UHGV virus genome: UHGV-0301147
Source of the DNA: a virus
Reading direction: 5' to 3' (one strand)
DNA length: 42,879 nucleotides
Shown in pieces: positions 22,103 through 32,707 of the stretch (within the stretch, counting starts at the first letter, position 1; each line of letters begins with the position of its first letter). Both the position numbers and the translations under genes were made by a program. Below the pieces are notes generated by a model that saw only the letters and a list, made by a program, of their open reading frames with translations, searched no databases and was not told the origin of the DNA.

Positions 22103-22452
22103 TTCTTAGAAATTTGGCAATATACCAAATTAGCGTTAAATATGGCCTATTTTGTTCGGTTTTGCAAGCATTATACGCAAACGTCGTCTAAATGGTTTTG
22201 ATAATGATGCAAAGTTGCAAGAAGTGCCACTTCATCAAGTGCTCTCACCGCCTCTTTCATTCCTGCCCAGTGCGGGGAGTATGTTTCGCACCAGGTGGAA
22301 CGAGAAACAGACAACATTCCAGCTAGCGCAGATCCGGCCATCTCCTTAAAATCCTCGCGTTTATTTGATGCTGCGACCGCCTGCACGGACAACCACACCA
22401 ACGAAAGCAGGCGCTTAACTACTTTTCTCTGAGTTGACGCGGGGATGTTTCC

Positions 22453-22480
22453 TTTATAGCGACTCCAGACAGCCTAACAA
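22453..22480 (-). promoter_or_regulatory. pR'-like late promoter candidate immediately after the Q-like gene
   Basis: Minus strand TTGTTA - 16 nt - TATAAA overlapping the stop of the 22474-22842 gene. Confidence 0.35.
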
Positions 22481-22842
22481 ATAGCTGTTTGGTGTTTGAA
22501 TGCCAGGTTACCACCGTAGCAATAACGCAACCACGCTTGCTGACTTGCATCCAGCGAGTTCACAGAACGCCGCCAGGATGAATCAGCAAATTCAAAATCA
22601 CTCATCGGCGGCGCGGGGCGACGTCTGCTGAAACTTTCCAGAGCGTAAACTGGCGTAACCAGAGCATCAACGGTCCGGTCCTCCAGCTGCACACGGTGAA
22701 TATGTTTGCGTGGGTATGCGTTTTTGTCTGCCGGTGGGTGCTCACACAATGCTTCCAGTTGCCCCTTAGAACCACCAGACAAATCCCGCAATGCAGCGCG
22801 CAGTTTTATGCGGGTATATTCCAATAAATACTCGTTACTCAT
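22474..22842 (-). CDS. Putative late-gene antiterminator (Q-like); assignment is positional
   Basis: 122-aa ORF between the YbcO-like gene and the promoter/terminator/holin region; lacks the DxD motif of RusA. Confidence 0.4.
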   Translation of the reverse strand: MSNEYLLEYTRIKLRAALRDLSGGSKGQLEALCEHPPADKNAYPRKHIHRVQLEDRTVDALVTPVYALESFSRRRPAPPMSDFEFADSSWRRSVNSLDASQQAWLRYCYGGNLAFKHQTAIC

Positions 22843-25742: not shown

Positions 25743-26231
25743 ATGGCTACCAACCCAAGAGAGCACGCCCGGCGAGTGCTGGACACGTTCTGGTGCGGGC
25801 GTGGTTTCCCTGTTGATCCAGCGAAAATTGCTCACGACATGGGATTAGATGTTTTTATTACCGATCTTCCTGGGAAAGTTTCTGGCGCACTGATTAAACA
25901 AAAAGATCAAGATCCAGCGATCTTTCTAAACAGTGATGACAACAAAGTTCGTCAACGTTTTTCATGTGGGCATGAGTTGGGGCATTACATCGCCCGGCAA
26001 GCATCGCATAGCGATGAATATGAGTACGTTGATTTACGTGGCGAAACCGCAAGCGCCGGAACGCATCCTGATGAAATTTTTGCGAACAAGTTCGCAGCAG
26101 AACTTCTGATGCCGGTAGATGAGGTCAGAAAACTGCACGCTGACGGCCAACCAAGTTATATAATGGCGCATCATTTTGGCGTATCTGACGATGCGATGAC
26201 TTATCGTTTAAAGAACTTGAGGTTGGGGTAA
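25743..26231 (+). CDS. ImmA/IrrE family zinc metallopeptidase
   Basis: 162-aa ORF with HEXXH motif (CGHELGHYIARQ) and strong SD GGAGGAG. Confidence 0.85.
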   Translation: MATNPREHARRVLDTFWCGRGFPVDPAKIAHDMGLDVFITDLPGKVSGALIKQKDQDPAIFLNSDDNKVRQRFSCGHELGHYIARQASHSDEYEYVDLRGETASAGTHPDEIFANKFAAELLMPVDEVRKLHADGQPSYIMAHHFGVSDDAMTYRLKNLRLG

Positions 26232-26240
26232 CGCTTTAGA

Positions 26241-26846
26241 ATGCCATCGGATGACGATTTTAACAGCCGTTTCAAACAGGAAGTTGCACGCCGACTGAAG
26301 GATTCCCTCAACCTACACCGTCAGTTAGCAGAAGAGGTTGAGCCGGAGGAGGATGAAACTCCGGTTCAGTCTCCTGACGAAACTTCACCTCAGACAAAGG
26401 TTTCGCACGCTCCAAAAAAACCGTCTGCCCGTATTCACGGAATAGCCAGAAAAAGAGCTGCCGAAGCTCACAAAATGGCTGTAGCTGCGTCAATCAAAAG
26501 AATTCCAATTCCTACCCCCTCTCAACAAGTCACCCGTACTGAGAGTAAAATCTTGACCGAGTTCACATCTGTGAAACAGGTGAGTTCACTTGATACCGAG
26601 CATGAGCGCAAACAACTCAACAACAAAGATTTTGAAGCTGAAATCGCTCTAAAAAAACGCTACGGAAAATGGTTCCTGATAATCCTTGCTTGCCAACTTC
26701 TGATAATGAATGGTGTATTTATTGCCGACGGCGCAGGTAAGCTGGAATTTGAAGATTTAACGCTACAGTTGTACATGGGCGGTACTTTGACAGAGGTATT
26801 CGGCCTCGTGCTGGTCGTGACAAAATACCTTTTTAAACGCAAGTAA
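26241..26846 (+). CDS. Hypothetical membrane protein (acidic N-terminal region, two C-terminal transmembrane helices), co-operonic with the ImmA-like gene
   Basis: 201-aa ORF starting 9 bp after the ImmA-like stop; hydrophobic segments KWFLIILACQLLIMNGVFIA and GGTLTEVFGLVLVVTKYLF. Confidence 0.6.
   Translation: MPSDDDFNSRFKQEVARRLKDSLNLHRQLAEEVEPEEDETPVQSPDETSPQTKVSHAPKKPSARIHGIARKRAAEAHKMAVAASIKRIPIPTPSQQVTRTESKILTEFTSVKQVSSLDTEHERKQLNNKDFEAEIALKKRYGKWFLIILACQLLIMNGVFIADGAGKLEFEDLTLQLYMGGTLTEVFGLVLVVTKYLFKRK
26775..26846 (+). repeat. Direct repeat copy A (last 24 codons of the membrane-protein gene)
   Basis: 72 bp matching 30377-30448 with 6 mismatches. Confidence 0.8.
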
Positions 26847-26955: not shown

Positions 26956-27360
26956 TTATCGTTGTACAATTCGTCCGTTGGGATCCAGCCACATCCCATC
27001 AGAAAGATACACCATTTCCCTGGGTTCATCCGTTACCTGCAGGTCATGGTAAATTGAAGTAAGCTCATTTTTAGGTGAAGGAGTGATATCTTCGCTTCCA
27101 AAGATCATATCTTGGTATTGTGCCCAATTTTGGCGAATTTCGAAATACATATCAACATCATAATCCTGCCCTCTTAGTTCATCATCTGAAGATATATTCA
27201 ATGTCTTTTTGAGACCGATGATGTTAAAGATCCACTTCTTACCACCTTTAATGAAGTATGCCCCAGTATATGCCTCTTCATCTGGTACAGCCTCATAACC
27301 TAAATTTAATGCTAATTGTATCTGTTCTGCTAATGTAAAAGACTCTTTCCATCCACTCAT
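26956..27360 (-). CDS. Hypothetical acidic protein
   Basis: 134-aa ORF in the low-GC cassette; no family recognised. Confidence 0.5.
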   Translation of the reverse strand: MSGWKESFTLAEQIQLALNLGYEAVPDEEAYTGAYFIKGGKKWIFNIIGLKKTLNISSDDELRGQDYDVDMYFEIRQNWAQYQDMIFGSEDITPSPKNELTSIYHDLQVTDEPREMVYLSDGMWLDPNGRIVQR

Positions 27361-27680
27361 AGCTTATTACCTACCTGTGAACCTGTTTGCTGCATGAAAA
27401 ACAATATAATAAAGCGTTATTGAAGACTATGAACCAAGTAAATTTAATCAAAGACGTTTATAACGCATTTGCCTAAACAACTTCCACCGTATGATCCGCT
27501 TCTCGCTCTCAGCAGACCTTTATCTGCAGGTGCTTGTCTGCTGTGTTCCAGAAGCAGATATTATTATATAACTCTTTAACCCATGTATGACAAAATATTC
27601 TTGGAGCTTATTAAAACTTCATACGTCTAAATCACCTCTTCATTAGTGAATCAATAATTGTATAGTTAAAATGTAACACT

Positions 27681-28346
27681 TTATTTTTTATGATTAACTT
27701 GCTTTGCTAAAGAGCTATAAATCATATCAACCAAAACATATTTTTCGCATTCCCAAGGTTCACTAATAGATGGGTTTACTAAGTCTGGCTTCCCCCCCAT
27801 TAGTGTATGAACATGCGAATAAATACCTATTCTTTCTGCGAGTTGCATTATTTTTATTTGATGTTCTGGTGGGAGCATTTTGTTTTTAAACCATGTTGTA
27901 AATATATGCTTGGTAAGTTCCTTAGTACAAACAAACCATTCACCTTGACGTCTTTCGTTGCTAAATTTTTCATGAAGATAATTTTCTTTTTCTGAACCAC
28001 CAGGTTCCAAAGCGTGTAATATTAATTGACCAAATGCACCTGTTTGCAGGTTAGACAACCTTTTTAGCACATTATTGGAACGCCCTATTTTCACATAAAG
28101 TCCCGAGTAAGGGTTATTTTTATCTGAAGAACCGGCCCAAGTATCAGGCACTTGTAAAATATAATAAATACTACTTACTTTCCCACTCGATACATTATTT
28201 GCCCAAATCTGCCATTCTTCCATCCAGCTTTTTGCATCTTCTCTCGTGTCAAAGGCATGACTTGTATAGTAAAATTCACCAGTATCCAAGAACATATCGA
28301 AAACATATTTGCCATTCTCTATAATTCTTAAGTTGTCGGCTTTCAT
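27681..28346 (-). CDS. T5orf172 (MUG113, GIY-YIG-like) domain protein; putative defence-type nuclease
   Basis: 221-aa ORF containing LYVKIGRSNNVLKRLSNLQTG ... ENYLHEKFSNERRQGEWF, matching the T5orf172 signature (YKIG-T ... R ... L ... E ... LH ... F ... R ... GEWF); AT-rich. Confidence 0.75.
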   Translation of the reverse strand: MKADNLRIIENGKYVFDMFLDTGEFYYTSHAFDTREDAKSWMEEWQIWANNVSSGKVSSIYYILQVPDTWAGSSDKNNPYSGLYVKIGRSNNVLKRLSNLQTGAFGQLILHALEPGGSEKENYLHEKFSNERRQGEWFVCTKELTKHIFTTWFKNKMLPPEHQIKIMQLAERIGIYSHVHTLMGGKPDLVNPSISEPWECEKYVLVDMIYSSLAKQVNHKK

Positions 28347-28550
28347 GGAAGTTTCTCACAAAGTTACAGGAATATATAAAAACTTTACTACGCTTAGTAT
28401 ATGTTACCACCTGATTATGTATTATTTGATTTACACAACTTATTGCTAGTAATAACGGTTTTGATGTAATCTTCTCATCCCAAACTAACCTTCAAAATAG
28501 ATTTAATCTAAATTATATCAAAATATGCTCTCAGTTAAGATGGCTTATTT

Positions 28551-28748
28551 TTAATCAGTTAGAGGATCAACCTGATTTTCTCTAATAAGATTTCGTAACG
28601 CAGTACGAGCAGCCGCGACTTCTGTCATTCCATTTAGAACCACGCTGGAATGCCCTCCTCTAACCCCAAAGACTGTGACCATATCCTCTTCACGGAAGTA
28701 TTCTGCTTCATACTGAAGGCCATCTTTCTCTACGCGAATATATGACAT
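28551..28748 (-). CDS. Small hypothetical protein
   Basis: 65-aa ORF with SD GAGG, upstream of the T5orf172 gene. Confidence 0.45.
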   Translation of the reverse strand: MSYIRVEKDGLQYEAEYFREEDMVTVFGVRGGHSSVVLNGMTEVAAARTALRNLIRENQVDPLTD

Positions 28749-29374
28749 AACAACCTCATTTTATTATCTTTTGTTTGAATGATATATCCACAAAATAATT
28801 TAAGCAATCTCGCCCAAGACGGCACGCCAAGCTTGCCTTGTAAGTATAATGTAAATATTCCGATAAAACTAATCATTCGCTTTTAGCGCATGTCCAAAAA
28901 ATGGTTCAGGTATCCTATCGTGCCAATATTCGCTCCTCACTCATAGCGGCTTTCAGGCAAGTTAACTAGTCCGCTCGGTGCCATATAGAGCCATGGTTAT
29001 TAACAGCAGGGAATAATTCCACACTGAAATTAAATGTCTGCCTTTTACAGTAGAAATAGTTTCTCCAGGACACTATCCATTGCCGGGCACAATCACTCGG
29101 GGTATAACGATATAAAATATGTTCATGATAGTGCAGGTTCGTATATTAAGTTCAGCAGCGAAAACATGCCTTACAGGTTTCCGGTTTTGGGAGCGTCGTT
29201 ACAGGATCCTGCGCATACCGTTCCCATCTGTTGAATTAAAGGTTTCACAGCCTTTGCCGATATCGCCTTTTACCTTGCCTGTGATGCGTTCAGTGCTCAG
29301 CGTTGTTTACTGTAGCTCTCGGAACTGATTACAGACCGCGTCTTAAAAACCAATCCTTACTCTAAAGGGAATTC

Positions 29375-30298
29375 ATGAGATTAAAATACTCAGTACTCTT
29401 ACTCGCCATTGCCCTTACAGGCTGTGATAACAAAAAAGATGAGATCGGTTGTTCTTCGGAAATGACCCAATCAGCTCTCATGGATTTATTAAAAAAATCT
29501 GCTTATGAAGGACTCTCTGAACAGGTCGATAAATACCCTGATGTCACTAATCAGACCAAACGAAGCACACTGGACAAGATCAAACTAGCCGTCTCTGAAA
29601 TCTCCACAACATCAAGTGACACGGGCAGCACAATGAAAACTTGTGAAGGGACCGTGACGATGACTCTACCTGCGAACGAGTACGTCCAGCTTTCAGATGC
29701 TTACAGAAAGAATTTTAATCGTAATCTCGACAAGCAAATGGAAAGCCTGTTTTTGGAGAACAACGCAAACGCCTTTTCCAAACGTATCACCTACACCGTG
29801 CAGGCGACCGACGATCAGAAAAACGTTTTTGTAAAAACCTCTTCTGATAATCCGATATCAGTGGGCGCCGCTTTACTGACATCACTTTCTATTATCAACC
29901 CGATCGTTGAGCAGCAGAAAATCCAGCAGGCTAAGGATGCCCAACAGAGCCAAATTGAAGCGGAACAACAGGTGCAACTCAGGGCGCAGGAACAGGCTAA
30001 GTATGAGGCGGAGAAGCAAATAGAGAGACAGGCACAACTTCAGCCACAAAAAGCTGACAGCCTTGATCAGTCCCGAATGGCATTTGCGAATGCCGACTCT
30101 GATTTGAGTACCGTCTGGAGCAAGTTAACCCCGGCGAAGAAAAAAGATTTGCTGCCTTCTCAGCGTCAGTGGATCAAAACTAAGGATGCTATGTGCGGTA
30201 AAGTTTCAATGCAGGGAACAGATGCTGAAGTCAAGAAAATGCTCGACTGCCAGACGCAAATGACCCTTTCAAGAATCGCTTTCCTCAGAAACCAATAA
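29375..30298 (+). CDS. Lipoprotein with Gln-rich coiled-coil region and C-terminal DUF1311 (LprI-like) domain
   Basis: 307-aa ORF with lipobox LTGC and C-terminal DLLPSQRQWIKTKDAMCG ... MLDCQTQMTLSRIAFL typical of DUF1311. Confidence 0.7.
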   Translation: MRLKYSVLLLAIALTGCDNKKDEIGCSSEMTQSALMDLLKKSAYEGLSEQVDKYPDVTNQTKRSTLDKIKLAVSEISTTSSDTGSTMKTCEGTVTMTLPANEYVQLSDAYRKNFNRNLDKQMESLFLENNANAFSKRITYTVQATDDQKNVFVKTSSDNPISVGAALLTSLSIINPIVEQQKIQQAKDAQQSQIEAEQQVQLRAQEQAKYEAEKQIERQAQLQPQKADSLDQSRMAFANADSDLSTVWSKLTPAKKKDLLPSQRQWIKTKDAMCGKVSMQGTDAEVKKMLDCQTQMTLSRIAFLRNQ

Positions 30299-30312
30299 CT
30301 GAAGTTTCCTTC

Positions 30313-30346
30313 AAGCTGGCGCCAGGTGTTAACCTGGTGCCAGCTT
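30313..30346 (+). terminator. Strong stem-loop after the DUF1311 lipoprotein gene (terminator candidate)
   Basis: aagctggcgccagg / cctggtgccagctt 14-bp stem (one G-U) with loop tgttaa, 15 bp after the stop; no clean U-tract. Confidence 0.4.
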
Positions 30347-30376
30347 AGTCATCAAGTGCATATTTAACTGTTTTAT

Positions 30377-30448
30377 ATGGGCGGTACTTTGACAGAGGTA
30401 TTCGGTCTCGTGCTGGTCGTGGTCAAATACCTTTTTAAACGCAAATAG
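30377..30448 (+). repeat. Direct repeat copy B (orphan 24-codon remnant of the membrane-protein gene 3' end)
   Basis: 72 bp matching 26775-26846; retains ATG and a stop but no upstream gene body. Confidence 0.8.
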
Positions 30449-30472
30449 AGTATTTCCACCCCAAACAACCTG

Positions 30473-31309
30473 TCAAAATGCTGAATCAGCAACAGATACA
30501 GCCGACTTTTTCCCCATTACCATCAATTTATCCAGTGTCATACTTCGCAGATTGTCGCTGTGGATCACCAGATACCCTGCCCGCTCAGCGATCTCTTTGA
30601 AAGCGTCAAAGGTCATCAGATGTTCGCCTTTGGCAACATGGCGCATCCTTGTCACTTTTCCATTTTTGATAGTGGTGATAAAAGAAAAATCCGGAATGGT
30701 TGGCTGATTTTCATCGAGTAGCAGGCAGTGGATGTATTCAATCGCCTCTAACATTTGCGTCTGTGACAGTTGTTCTATGTGAGAGACGGCGAAGCGTTGA
30801 TGAATCATGGTGTAGGCATCGGGATACATCATGCCTTTCTTACCGACCAGCATATTAACGGCATCACGTAAGGGAGTACGGTCATCGGTAGTTGTACTCC
30901 GCCTCTCTGGGCGCTGGCTAAAATAACAATCTTCAAGCTTTTCGAAAACTTCCCAAGCCTGTTCTGTTTCCAGCATTTTGGCATGGCGAGCTGCGCCGCG
31001 TTCTGTCCAGAGAATGAGGGATCGGGTATGTTTAGCAACTGACTGACTATCTGTCAGTCTGTTTTTGAAGTCGCGTAATTCATTACCTTCCAGCTTAAAA
31101 AAATGCTTTCCTACGACAAATCTGGCGATGTTGCGCTTGAAGTTTTGCTGGATACCATTTACTTCCGTGCCATACAAACTGGCAAGCAATTCAGTAGTGA
31201 TGACGGGAAGTTGGTTATGATGTAGCGGAGAAAGGGATTCCGCAGATATTTGGATTGTCATCGCAGTGGCCTCACTTAGTGTTTTTTTCATCACCACCAG
31301 CGACGCCAA
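30473..31309 (-). CDS. Phage antirepressor-like regulatory protein (Ant/Rha-type N-terminal domain)
   Basis: 278-aa ORF with antirepressor-like N-terminal region; true start probably an internal Met. Confidence 0.55.
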   Translation of the reverse strand: MASLVVMKKTLSEATAMTIQISAESLSPLHHNQLPVITTELLASLYGTEVNGIQQNFKRNIARFVVGKHFFKLEGNELRDFKNRLTDSQSVAKHTRSLILWTERGAARHAKMLETEQAWEVFEKLEDCYFSQRPERRSTTTDDRTPLRDAVNMLVGKKGMMYPDAYTMIHQRFAVSHIEQLSQTQMLEAIEYIHCLLLDENQPTIPDFSFITTIKNGKVTRMRHVAKGEHLMTFDAFKEIAERAGYLVIHSDNLRSMTLDKLMVMGKKSAVSVADSAF

Positions 31310-31533
31310 TCATCTGGTGGTGAACTGTGCAGGGTTGGCGTAACCGGCTAAGTGAACCCGGCGCTTCCGCAGAAGCCCCCACACAGCCCACCATAATGCG
31401 AATGTGGCCGTGCCTAACACATAAAAAAACCGCTAACGCGGCTATGCGTCACTTAGATATCCGGGACGCCAATCCCGGCAACCGATTTTGCGGCTGCGCG
31501 GAAACTATAGCCCCGGGCTTTTTCTAAGTCAAT

Positions 31534-31755
31534 TCAATCAACTTCAAACCTCCGGTGTTCACATTCCATACACTCAACGGGAACATCATCGCGATGCAAG
31601 TCCACATATCCGACCCGCTTATACAACTCAATAATGTCCGGTAACGTGACCAGATGTTTTTCCGGTTCCAACACCTCAGCCCTGGTTACTTTGTAATCTG
31701 AAATATAGAGCACTATCCGCCCGTTCCGTGGTAACTCCAGTTTATCGCCAAACAT
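31534..31755 (-). CDS. Hypothetical protein (nin-region-like)
   Basis: 73-aa ORF colinear with the minus-strand early-right operon. Confidence 0.4.
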   Translation of the reverse strand: MFGDKLELPRNGRIVLYISDYKVTRAEVLEPEKHLVTLPDIIELYKRVGYVDLHRDDVPVECMECEHRRFEVD

Positions 31756-31941
31756 GTCCTTCCCTCCGGGAAACCAATGATATTGACGATATTACACCCA
31801 CAACGATTCGTTTTACGTCACTCCGCAATCACCATACATACGTACCAATCCGTACATTCCCACCACAAAAATGGCATTCGGCGGGCACTGGTAATGGATT
31901 TTTAACGTGTGCTATTGCCTTGCGACGTATTTTCAACTCAC

Positions 31942-32166
31942 TCATACAGCCTCCCTGCTCTCAAATGGGCGAATATTGGTTGGTTCTCCACACGGAATAG
32001 CCCAACCCAGCCAGGTAAATATTTTCAGGTCACACATCGCGTCATACCGTTCGCCAGGATTCACATCCACCATGCTGCAGGCAATTTCATATTGTTCACC
32101 ATTATCAGTCAGTGCGATCTGGTCATTAATAAACCGGGGCACAAATGCCAGAAAAAGTTCTTTCAT
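31942..32166 (-). CDS. Hypothetical protein
   Basis: 74-aa ORF whose stop abuts the start of the next gene; an overlapping plus-strand ORF was judged less likely. Confidence 0.35.
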   Translation of the reverse strand: MKELFLAFVPRFINDQIALTDNGEQYEIACSMVDVNPGERYDAMCDLKIFTWLGWAIPCGEPTNIRPFESREAV

Positions 32167-32474
32167 GAAATCCTCCGCTCAAAATAAACATACTGATTCA
32201 CCGCACCGATCGACATTTCGAGTTTTTCCGCGATATCCTGGCGATTAATACCCGACTGATGTAATTCCCTTGCCAGCTCGATATCCTCCTGGCGGTATTT
32301 CACTGACTGGTGATAATTACCCCGCAGATACATACAGATTTTCAACTCGCGCGCTTTTGTGCGTACCGCAGCACCGGTTCTTCCAATAAGCTGCCCTATA
32401 CGTTCAACTGTCATGCTGCCCGCACATTGTTTGATGATTACGACTTCCGCACGCACCCACCGTTTGTATTTCAT
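32163..32474 (-). CDS. HTH-motif DNA-binding protein
   Basis: 103-aa ORF with two helix-turn-helix-like segments. Confidence 0.45.
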   Translation of the reverse strand: MKYKRWVRAEVVIIKQCAGSMTVERIGQLIGRTGAAVRTKARELKICMYLRGNYHQSVKYRQEDIELARELHQSGINRQDIAEKLEMSIGAVNQYVYFERRIS

Positions 32475-32707
32475 TGCTCCATCCCCCCTCTCCAGTAGTT
32501 CAGACGCTCTCTGAAAAATTCCCGGTACGTATCCGGCGTCATTCCGATTTGCTCAATCACGCTTCCCCTCGGAATACGTTTCTCAAAGAGTTGGCGGATC
32601 AGCGTCGCCGCTCGCATGTCGTAGTGCTCTTTAAGCAGGTATTCCTGAGGCCATTTGGCGCGGTTGTGTGGTAAGCCGGGCGGCAGGTAATCTGATTGCC
32701 CTGCCAT
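32471..32707 (-). CDS. Hypothetical protein
   Basis: 78-aa ORF translationally coupled to neighbours. Confidence 0.4.
   Translation of the reverse strand: MAGQSDYLPPGLPHNRAKWPQEYLLKEHYDMRAATLIRQLFEKRIPRGSVIEQIGMTPDTYREFFRERLNYWRGGMEQ

What the first reader, a model, noticed from the sequence alone, without database searches (positions are those of the whole stretch)
29375..30346. Self-contained lipoprotein cargo gene with DUF1311 domain and strong downstream hairpin
This is a plus-strand gene with its own upstream AT-rich region and a 14-bp hairpin after the stop, inside a minus-strand neighbourhood. DUF1311/LprI-like domains are linked to lysozyme inhibition and envelope functions, so it may be a lysogenic-conversion or exclusion factor.
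Basis: partly seen in the sequence, partly recalled or inferred. Interest (0 to 1): 0.4.

Follow-up and report, generated by a model that had tools for sequence, protein, structure and literature searches.

The report
Prophage-carried ScwA-like DUF1311 envelope lipoprotein gene
A real but fairly ordinary prophage "passenger" gene: a cassette also found on enterobacterial chromosomes, encoding a membrane-anchored periplasmic protein that probably binds cell-wall-cutting enzymes, with no evidence that it inhibits lysozyme as its database name says.

Summary
ORF 29375-30298 (+) encodes a 307-aa lipoprotein (lipobox LTG|C17, Asp at +2) with a Pfam LprI/DUF1311 domain at residues 226-304. A 14-bp G+C-rich hairpin follows at 30314-30345. 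Only the "AT-rich upstream region" is not distinctive, and no consensus promoter was found.

The window is a lambdoid E. coli prophage integrated beside the tRNA genes next to pgsA-uvrC; a close relative is in ST131 strain EC958. The gene lies antisense in the variable cargo block between the replication genes and Q.

The unit 29146-30344 (229 bp upstream, CDS, hairpin) is about 88% identical to stand-alone chromosomal loci in Citrobacter and Yersinia. Relatives sit antisense in Enterobacter lambdoid prophages, a P2-like prophage and a third phage backbone, so it is a recurrent moron.

The architecture is lipid anchor, two-Cys alpha/beta N-domain (no Pfam family), a Q-rich helical spacer of 45-80 residues, then a two-Cys DUF1311 bundle. 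At least 220 clusters at 50% identity share the N-domain. The closest studied relative is Salmonella ScwA, which changes MltD levels and has no role in lysozyme resistance.

The MliC domain, to which lysozyme inhibition by M. tuberculosis LprI is attributed, is absent here. Most likely this is a tethered periplasmic binder or modulator of peptidoglycan glycosidases. That function is inferred, not shown. I class it as a new member of a known kind, of modest interest.

The parts
29146..29374 (+). Conserved non-coding upstream region of the cassette (presumed promoter/5' UTR), including the SD AAGGG at 29365-29369
   Evidence: DNA homology to the Citrobacter and Yersinia chromosomal loci starts at 29146/29144, and to Enterobacter prophages at 29220. 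No conserved ORF lies in it. No consensus sigma-70 site was found.
29375..30298 (+). CDS, 307-aa lipoprotein of the LprI/DUF1311 (ScwA-like) family
   Evidence: (phrog_5094, E=4e-186).
29375..29425 (+). Signal peptide and lipobox (L14-T15-G16-C17); the mature N-terminus is C-D-N-K-K (Asp at +2)
   Evidence: Read from the sequence. C17 is invariant. The +2 Asp rule for inner-membrane retention in Enterobacteriaceae is described in PMC6469965.
29426..29908 (+). N-terminal alpha/beta domain (residues 18-178) with conserved Cys26/Cys90 and a Q143-x-T145-D146 motif; no Pfam family
   Evidence: AF2 pLDDT is about 90. Only weak NTF2-like fold matches. A profile of this domain finds 220 clusters at 50% identity. 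No Pfam hit in 74 members.
29909..30049 (+). Gln/Glu/Ala-rich helical spacer (residues 179-225), variable in length among homologues
   Evidence: Continuous helix 160-221 in the model. Spacer length is 45-80 residues among 29 homologues and has 17 Gln in 51 residues. One allele has an 8-residue tandem duplication (P0002).
30050..30286 (+). DUF1311 / LprI N-terminal-type helical domain (residues 226-304) with Cys274/Cys292
30300..30345 (+). 3' stem-loops: a small 5-bp hairpin (30300-30313) and a 14-bp G+C-rich hairpin (30314-30345), with no U-tract; the 3' end of the cassette
   Evidence: Homology to Citrobacter and Yersinia ends at 30344/30347.
29375..29409 (-). Protospacer 1 (29375-29406) plus PAM (29407-29409, ATG on the - strand), matched 32/32 by an E. 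coli type I-E CRISPR spacer
29848..29882 (-). Protospacer 2 (29848-29879) plus PAM ATG, matched 32/32 by a spacer in the ygcE-queE array
30367..30447 (+). Stranded copy of the 3' end of a gene like ORF 26241-26846 (81-nt direct repeat with 26765-26845); marks the right joint of the 3.6-kb cargo block that holds the cassette

Best explanation
This is a moron: an autonomous gene cassette (upstream control region, CDS, 3' stem-loop) riding antisense in the accessory region of a lambdoid E. coli prophage. The same cassette also exists as a stand-alone chromosomal gene in other Enterobacterales. It encodes a periplasm-facing lipoprotein, probably retained in the inner membrane by Asp at +2. The protein is built as lipid anchor, disulfide-bonded alpha/beta N-domain, Q-rich helical stalk of roughly 7-9 nm (my estimate from residue number), then a disulfide-bonded DUF1311 helical bundle. 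It has the same two-domain plan as Salmonella ScwA but with a membrane tether. Most likely mechanism (inferred): expressed in the lysogen independently of the lytic programme, it holds the DUF1311 domain near the peptidoglycan layer. There it binds glycan-strand-cleaving enzymes (lytic transglycosylases or muramidases) and changes their stability or activity, as ScwA does for MltD. This alters cell-wall hydrolase balance or tolerance to incoming muramidases. It is not a MliC-type lysozyme inhibitor. Shown: gene, lipobox, domains, cassette boundaries, distribution. Inferred: expression, location, binding partner, phenotype.
For: Anatomy. Prophage context between the DnaB-type replication genes and Q, with neighbours that vary between related prophages. 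Cassette identity to non-phage chromosomal loci, with homology ending exactly at the hairpin. The same slot and antisense orientation in Enterobacter lambdoid prophages. 38 IMG/VR viral contigs carry a relative, including a P2-like prophage (between the gpS and gpV homologues) and a third backbone. Two E. coli CRISPR I-E spacers match the gene exactly with a correct PAM. Family architecture is conserved in at least 220 clusters, nearly all lipoproteins with the same four-Cys pattern, and 57 of 74 carry Pfam LprI. ScwA relation: C-domain 33% identity, E=2e-11; Cys30 aligns with Cys26; the peptide around ScwA Cys100, derived from a published primer, matches the motif around Cys90. ScwA raises MltD levels, its overproduction lyses cells, and it has no lysozyme phenotype (PMC7933661). 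DUF1311 proteins act as, or are predicted to be, immunity against periplasm-acting and lysozyme-like T6SS effectors. There is a fold match to TsiV3.
Confidence: 0.45

Rival explanations
1. Orphan immunity or shield against incoming muramidases. The DUF1311 domain would neutralise lysozyme-like T6SS effectors of competitors, or peptidoglycan-degrading virion proteins of superinfecting phages, so the prophage protects its host.
Against: No T6SS or effector gene lies within about 7-8 kb in any context examined. The two-domain, roughly 300-aa lipoprotein architecture matches ScwA, a stand-alone gene, rather than any described effector-adjacent immunity protein. PADLOC has no match.
Confidence: 0.2
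2. Direct inhibitor of host (c-type or g-type) lysozyme, as the database name 'lysozyme inhibitor LprI family protein' and the first reader suggest.
For: The Pfam/RefSeq name. It is a lipoprotein, like MliC/PliC-type inhibitors (discussion). An Enterobacter prophage that carries a homologue also carries an Ivy gene, so lysozyme inhibitors can be phage cargo.
Against: The ScwA paper attributes lysozyme resistance in M. tuberculosis LprI to its MliC domain (PMC7933661). No MliC match was found here at E<=1. A scwA deletion shows no change in lysozyme/EDTA sensitivity. Predicted inner-membrane anchoring places the protein away from the first point of lysozyme entry.
Confidence: 0.08
3. Superinfection-exclusion lipoprotein that blocks adsorption or DNA entry of other phages, in the manner of Llp/Cor or SieA.
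For: It is a prophage-encoded envelope lipoprotein on the opposite strand, in a block that also holds defence-like genes: ImmA/IrrE CapP-like, GIY-YIG, and DUF262 in a relative.
Against: There is no homology to known exclusion proteins; the only TrbK/VirB7 hits are signal-peptide matches at E about 0.09. PHROG 5094 has no assigned function. Close orthologues are stable chromosomal genes in Citrobacter, Pantoea, Proteus and Morganella, outside any phage.
Confidence: 0.1
4. Functionally neutral hitch-hiker: a chromosomal gene picked up by illegitimate recombination and now drifting in a defective prophage.
For: A truncated allele lacks both C-domain cysteines and has 166 member sequences. Other alleles are fused to IS sequences. 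IS1 and ISEc52 lie at or next to the gene in some genomes. The Q antiterminator is a pseudogene in this prophage. A stranded gene fragment sits right after the cassette.
Against: The ORF is intact in 439 E. coli genomes at 95-100% DNA identity. It is kept while neighbouring cargo changes. It has been captured independently by at least three phage backbones. Both domains are strongly conserved across genera, with mean column identity of 70%.
Confidence: 0.1

Closest known systems
ScwA (SL1344_0490) of Salmonella Typhimurium, a periplasmic cell-wall-related regulator (PMC7933661)
   Same: Enterobacterial stand-alone gene of about 275-310 aa. An N-terminal domain with two conserved Cys and a C-terminal LprI/DUF1311 domain with two conserved Cys. 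C-domain 33% identical, E=2e-11. The motifs around both N-domain cysteines align. No MliC domain.
   Different: ScwA has an ordinary signal peptide (..SYA|G) and is soluble in the periplasm, whereas this protein has a lipobox and Asp at +2. ScwA lacks the long Q-rich spacer, judging from its length. ScwA is chromosomal in Salmonella, whereas this gene is prophage-borne. Full-length homology could not be tested because the whole ScwA sequence was not retrievable.
M. tuberculosis LprI (Rv1541c), lysozyme-inhibitor lipoprotein
   Same: A lipoprotein that shares the PF07007 domain, which gives the family its name.
   Different: LprI carries a C-terminal MliC domain, to which the ScwA paper attributes lysozyme resistance. 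That domain is absent here. The PF07007 domain is N-terminal in LprI and C-terminal here. LprI has no counterpart of the alpha/beta N-domain or the spacer.
[not shown]
   Different: Those proteins are encoded next to effectors or inside T6SS clusters. This one is a 307-aa two-domain lipoprotein with no T6SS neighbourhood in any of the contexts examined.
Classical lambdoid and P2 morons encoding envelope lipoproteins (lambda bor; phi80/N15 cor; T5 llp); comparison from general knowledge
   Same: Prophage-carried, self-contained envelope lipoprotein genes placed between phage modules and thought to be expressed in the lysogen.
   Different: No sequence or fold relation. Those are short outer-membrane lipoproteins with defined targets (FhuA, serum resistance). 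This one is larger, is predicted to stay in the inner membrane, and has chromosomal orthologues.
PHROG 5094
   Same: Full-length match (residues 36-307, E=4e-186); this gene is a member.
   Different: The PHROG has no functional annotation. Its model starts at Met36, so the lipoprotein signal was missed by the gene calls it was built from.

Membership tests
Pfam PF07007 (LprI / DUF1311) domain family | HMM match above the gathering score | tested here: met
   31.1 bits against a cut-off of 22, E=3.2e-7, residues 226-304; 57 of 74 wider family members also match.
Pfam PF07007 (LprI / DUF1311) domain family | Helical-bundle fold like PDB 3GI7, with a conserved cysteine pair | tested here: met
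   [not shown]
MliC/PliC-type lysozyme inhibitors (including LprI in the strict functional sense) | Presence of a MliC (PF09864) or other known inhibitor domain (Ivy, PliG) | tested here: not met
   A Pfam scan at E<=1 returns only LprI plus two insignificant hits.
MliC/PliC-type lysozyme inhibitors (including LprI in the strict functional sense) | Binds and inhibits lysozyme | not testable with these tools
   Needs an enzyme assay. The nearest studied relative, ScwA, gave no lysozyme phenotype.
ScwA-like two-domain periplasmic proteins | N-domain with 2 Cys plus C-terminal LprI domain with 2 Cys, about 275-330 aa | tested here: met
   C26, C90, C274, C292. The same pattern is seen in the wider family. 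ScwA has C30, C100, C237, C259.
ScwA-like two-domain periplasmic proteins | Sequence homology to ScwA over both domains | tested here: inconclusive
   C-domain E=2e-11. For the N-domain only a 38-column hhalign match (E=1e-3, probability 18%) and primer-derived peptide motifs. Full-length ScwA was not obtained.
ScwA-like two-domain periplasmic proteins | Soluble periplasmic protein that controls MltD levels | tested here: not met
   Solubility: this protein has a lipobox, whereas the ScwA N-terminus has none (P0268). The effect on MltD is not testable here.
T6SS immunity proteins with DUF1311 | Encoded adjacent to a cognate effector or within a T6SS island | tested here: not met
   No effector, VgrG, Hcp or PAAR genes within 7-20 kb in E. 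coli, Enterobacter, Citrobacter, Yersinia, Pantoea, Proteus, Morganella or Kluyvera contexts.
T6SS immunity proteins with DUF1311 | Exported DUF1311 protein | tested here: met
   Signal peptide with lipobox plus DUF1311.
Phage moron (autonomous cargo gene) | Lies between phage functional modules, in the opposite orientation, with the same unit present elsewhere without the phage | tested here: met
Phage moron (autonomous cargo gene) | Own promoter and own terminator | tested here: inconclusive
   A conserved 3' hairpin travels with the gene. The conserved 155-229 bp upstream contains no recognisable sigma-70 promoter.
Rho-independent (intrinsic) terminator | G+C-rich stem-loop followed by a U-tract | tested here: not met
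   The stem is present. The tail is AGUCAUCAAGUG with no U-run, and the terminator scan did not report it. The Morganella orthologue does have a canonical terminator.
Superinfection-exclusion lipoproteins (Llp, Cor, TrbK-like) | Homology to a known exclusion family | tested here: not met
   NCBIfam TrbK E=0.087, over the signal peptide only. No annotated PHROG match. No PADLOC match. No viral fold match at E<=1e-3.

The most novel reading that the evidence does not exclude
Temperate phages of several unrelated backbones (lambdoid, P2-like, others) repeatedly capture a membrane-tethered ScwA-like protein. Its stalk-mounted DUF1311 domain would act as a general periplasmic shield against incoming peptidoglycan glycosidases, such as T6SS lysozyme-like effectors, virion lysins of superinfecting phages, or host lysozyme after outer-membrane damage. 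That would make it a prophage-supplied 'orphan immunity' envelope defence. The uncharacterised N-domain, with its invariant Asp146 and conserved Q-x-T-D motif, would sense or bind a peptidoglycan or membrane ligand.
Probability: 0.15. Interest if true: 0.6.

Novelty: new member of a known kind. Interest (0 to 1): 0.3.

Why it matters
If the protein really modulates or neutralises peptidoglycan-cleaving enzymes, it would be a lysogenic-conversion factor carried by a prophage that is common in E. coli. In the collection searched, 439 of 5,426 complete genomes hold an intact-length copy, including ST131 strain EC958. It would also give a function to an uncharacterised two-domain lipoprotein family (at least 220 clusters at 50% identity) that databases currently label "lysozyme inhibitor". 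The practical message for annotation is that the label is transferred from a protein whose inhibitory activity is attributed to a different domain. As it stands, the finding is a correctly spotted but ordinary moron.

Tried and rejected
1. Promoter search. The consensus sigma-70 scan and inspection of the four-way upstream alignment gave no convincing -35/-10 pair. By eye, sigma-E-like (GGAACT..TCTTA) and PhoP/CpxR/RcsB-like half-sites were either wrongly spaced or not conserved, so they were dropped.

2. A coding function for the conserved upstream 229 bp. No ORF is conserved between the window and Citrobacter.

3. Rfam search of 27000-32500. Nothing overlaps the gene or the hairpin; only the isrK/C4 RNAs next to the ant-like gene were found.

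4. Deposited phage genomes (INPHARED). No DNA or tblastn match. The gene is known only from integrated prophages and IMG/VR contigs.

5. Retrieving full-length ScwA. Two exact-pattern scans of genome contigs with primer-derived sequences found nothing. A family-profile search with a chimeric row did not pull it in. A fragment query recovered only partial proteins.

7. The 81-nt repeat after the hairpin as a second terminator or sRNA. Its folding is no better than shuffles. It is instead a stranded gene 3' end.

8. The Morganella yfhM-pbpC adjacency as a conserved functional link. It is not conserved in Proteus or elsewhere.

9. Literature search for 'LprI' plus 'prophage'. Nothing specific to this gene.

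Full report
THE OBSERVATION

The + strand ORF 29375-30298 is real and encodes 307 aa. A Shine-Dalgarno AAGGG lies 5 nt before the ATG. The N-terminus, MRLKYSVLLLAIALTG|CDNKK, is a textbook lipoprotein signal. Cys17 is invariant in 29 homologues that range from 46% to 92% identity to it.

Pfam places an LprI/DUF1311 domain at residues 226-304, at E=3.2e-7 and 31.1 bits against a gathering score of 22. PHROG 5094, of unknown function, matches residues 36-307 at E=4e-186. That model starts at an internal Met, so the lipoprotein signal is missing from it.

After the stop codon there is a small 5-bp hairpin, then a 14-bp G+C-rich stem with a 4-nt loop at 30314-30345. Its z-score is -5.6 to -6.4, and none of 200 shuffles folds as well. 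All neighbouring genes are on the - strand.

One element of the description fails. The upstream region is not unusually AT-rich: GC is 0.46 and 0.42, against 0.43 for the surrounding 7 kb. No + strand sigma-70-like site was found upstream. The hairpin lacks a U-tract, so it is not a canonical intrinsic terminator.

WHERE IT SITS

The gene lies between the replication genes (DnaB-type helicase) and the DUF1367-DUF1364-Q antiterminator block. Its neighbours are an ORF6N antirepressor-like gene, a GIY-YIG/T5orf172 nuclease, an ImmA/IrrE peptidase pair and, in relatives, IS elements or a DUF262 gene.

Related prophages, including one in ST131 strain EC958, keep this gene while the surrounding cargo differs. 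In the complete-genome collection 576 of 5,426 genomes have a match, and 439 of them carry at least 80% of the cassette at 95-100% identity. No deposited phage genome has it, by DNA or by tblastn.

IT IS A TRANSFERABLE CASSETTE

In Citrobacter freundii-group genomes an 88%-identical protein is encoded at a fixed chromosomal site, between a fec-like iron-uptake operon and an MFS transporter/amn region. No phage genes lie within 8 kb.

DNA similarity between the window and that locus, and a Yersinia rohdei locus, runs from 29146/29144 to 30344/30347 at about 88-90% identity. That span is 229 bp upstream, the CDS and the hairpin, and it stops precisely at the hairpin's end. The upstream stretch contains no conserved ORF. 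A hairpin after the stop is retained in every orthologous locus, and the Morganella orthologue has a canonical terminator instead.

In the Enterobacter cloacae complex the gene (84% identity) sits antisense in lambdoid prophages, between O/P and DinI-DUF1367-RusA-Q. That is the same slot as here.

A scan of IMG/VR found 38 viral contigs with a relative. A 47%-identical homologue lies antisense between the gpS and gpV homologues of a P2-like prophage. From memory, this is the orf30 cargo site of P2. A 45%-identical one sits beside the terminase of a third backbone.

Pantoea, Proteus, Morganella and Kluyvera carry chromosomal copies with unrelated neighbours, and a 356-aa paralogue lies in an integrase island. 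The gene is always monocistronic and has no conserved partner.

Two E. coli type I-E CRISPR spacers match the gene 32/32 (29375-29406 and 29848-29879). Both have an ATG PAM on the protospacer strand. By identity band, about 119 genomes appear to carry the first spacer. This is independent evidence that E. coli has met this gene on invading DNA.

THE PROTEIN

AlphaFold2 with 29 homologues gives mean pLDDT 84. The model has three parts:

- an alpha/beta N-domain (residues about 29-160);
- one continuous helix, 160-221;
- a three-helix C-terminal bundle.

The N-domain has no Pfam family and only weak NTF2-like fold matches.

A profile of the N-domain alone, searched against 1.84 billion representatives, found 220 clusters at E<=1e-3. 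Nearly all are lipoproteins of about 300 aa with the same cysteine pattern: the lipid Cys, Cys at about +9, Cys at about +66, then a pair 18-22 apart near the C-terminus. Of 74 aligned members, 57 carry Pfam LprI. Invariant positions are C90, D146, C274 and C292. Near-invariant are C17, C26, T78, D82, S85, Q143, T145, W248, Q263 and R300.

The spacer is Gln/Glu/Ala-rich and varies from 45 to 80 residues among close homologues. One allele has an 8-residue tandem duplication. This behaviour fits a ruler or stalk rather than a specific binding surface (inference). As a helix it would span roughly 7-9 nm (my estimate).

Asp at +2, with Asn at +3, is the enterobacterial inner-membrane retention signal (PMC6469965). 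The +2 residue is not conserved in Proteus, Morganella or the wider family.

WHAT IS KNOWN ABOUT RELATIVES

The name "lysozyme inhibitor LprI" comes from M. tuberculosis LprI. According to the ScwA paper, LprI also carries a MliC domain that suffices for lysozyme resistance, and there is no experimental evidence that PF07007 itself inhibits lysozyme (PMC7933661). The protein here has no MliC match.

The same paper characterises Salmonella ScwA. It is 275 aa, periplasmic, with a C-terminal LprI domain and four conserved Cys (30, 100, 237, 259). It is a DsbA substrate and positively controls MltD levels. Its overproduction lyses cells, and its deletion does not change lysozyme/EDTA sensitivity.

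I could not retrieve full-length ScwA, only fragments. Its C-terminal 85 residues are 33% identical to this protein, E=2e-11. Its Cys30 region aligns in register with Cys26. The peptide around Cys100, deduced from a published mutagenesis primer (NANLRTCSATVAM), matches GSTMKTCEGTVTM around Cys90.

ScwA therefore very probably shares the two-domain plan. It is not lipidated, however (..SYA|G).

Separately, DUF1311 proteins are linked to T6SS immunity. Etsi4 rescues the toxicity of the periplasm-acting effector Etse4 in EHEC. LprI-domain genes follow lysozyme-like effectors in Pantoea, and some WHIX effector neighbours carry the domain.

MOST LIKELY MECHANISM

Shown:

- a self-contained cassette encoding an exported, lipobox-bearing two-domain protein;
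- repeated capture of that cassette by temperate phages.

Inferred:

- it is transcribed in the lysogen independently of the - strand phage operons;
- it is anchored in the inner membrane;
- it presents its DUF1311 bundle at peptidoglycan height;
- there it binds glycan-cleaving enzymes, either endogenous lytic transglycosylases (as ScwA affects MltD) or incoming muramidases.

I put about 0.45 on this tethered, ScwA-like binder of peptidoglycan glycosidases. For the rivals I put 0.2 on a dedicated shield against exogenous muramidases (orphan immunity), 0.1 on superinfection exclusion, about 0.08 on true lysozyme inhibition and 0.1 on a drifting passenger.

The prophage's own endolysin is a CHAP-domain enzyme. 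Self-protection against a phage muramidase is therefore not the obvious role here.

Several points argue against strong selection. A truncated allele lacks both C-domain cysteines (166 member sequences). Other alleles are IS-fused. IS elements lie at or next to the gene in some genomes. The Q gene of this prophage has an in-frame stop.

VERDICT

The lysozyme-inhibitor rationale is mostly a naming artefact. The gene is already annotated in RefSeq and belongs to a PHROG, and it belongs to a large family whose only studied member known to me is ScwA. I therefore class it as a new member of a known kind, with modest interest (0.3).

The more interesting, unexcluded reading is a prophage-supplied general periplasmic shield against muramidases. 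I give it about 0.15 probability.

Noticed in passing
window 31313-31510 (-) and 30473-31309 (-): Rfam finds isrK (80 bits), C4 antisense RNA (74.5 bits) and the c4 a1/b1 target element directly upstream of an ORF6N-domain antirepressor-like gene. This looks like a P1/P7 immI-type or Gifsy-1 isrK-type RNA-controlled antirepressor module inside a lambdoid prophage.
   Followed up: partly
window 26765-26845 and 30367-30447: An 81-nt direct repeat (90% identical). The second copy is a stranded 3' end (..YMGGTLTEVFGLVLVVVKYLFKRK*) of a gene like ORF 26241-26846. A 3.6-kb cargo block (small ORFs, GIY-YIG nuclease, the lipoprotein cassette) is therefore bracketed by a duplicated gene end. The same bracket, with different contents, occurs in EC958 and in strain LCP30S3_I5.
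   Followed up: partly
window 29375-29409 and 29848-29882; L012 2678-3252; L013 2667-3122: Two E. coli type I-E CRISPR spacers (iap-cas array and ygcE-queE array) match the lipoprotein gene 32/32, both with an ATG PAM. By identity band, about 119 complete genomes appear to carry the first spacer. The spacer-bearing records listed had only that one match and so lack the gene.
   Followed up: partly
window 22171-22842 (-): The Q antiterminator gene has an in-frame TAG at codon 123; RefSeq also flags it as a pseudogene in the identical strain. This copy of the prophage is probably defective for late gene expression. The EC958 copy is intact.
   Followed up: partly
window 25743-26846 (+): A second + strand unit in the cargo region: an ImmA/IrrE (Peptidase_M78) protein that matches PADLOC capP at 1.6e-25, followed by a 201-aa protein of unknown family with a hydrophobic C-terminal segment. 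It may be a defence or regulatory pair.
   Followed up: no
window 27681-28346 (-): A GIY-YIG/T5orf172 (MUG113) domain protein in the cargo block. In related prophages it is replaced by other genes: a hypothetical protein in EC958, and DUF262 plus a partner in LCP30S3_I5.
   Followed up: no
L017 5178-5591 (-): An Enterobacter prophage remnant that carries the homologous lipoprotein gene also carries an Ivy (PF08816, inhibitor of vertebrate lysozyme) gene next to Q. Bona fide lysozyme inhibitors can therefore be cargo in the same phage group.
   Followed up: no
L056 6001-6933; L055 5992-6894: Distant homologues (47% and 45% identity) lie antisense between the gpS and gpV homologues of a P2-like prophage, and next to the large terminase of another phage. 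These are independent captures of the family by unrelated backbones.
   Followed up: partly
L006-L009 5332-9002: In Morganella morganii the orthologue lies directly downstream of the alpha-2-macroglobulin (yfhM-like) and PBP1C (pbpC-like) genes, a periplasmic defence/repair pair. The adjacency is not kept in Proteus.
   Followed up: partly
proteins P0071, P0122, P0137, P0002 (E. coli alleles of window 29375-30298): A C-terminally truncated allele (259 aa, missing Cys274/Cys292; 166 member sequences), two alleles fused to IS-derived sequence, and an allele with an 8-residue tandem duplication (EQQVQLRA) in the spacer.
   Followed up: partly
L062-L065 7001-8071: A 356-aa paralogue (Citrobacter braakii, Yersinia enterocolitica, Klebsiella) sits in an integrase-bearing island beside TerD/TerY-VWA, PP2C phosphatase and Ser/Thr kinase genes.
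   Followed up: no
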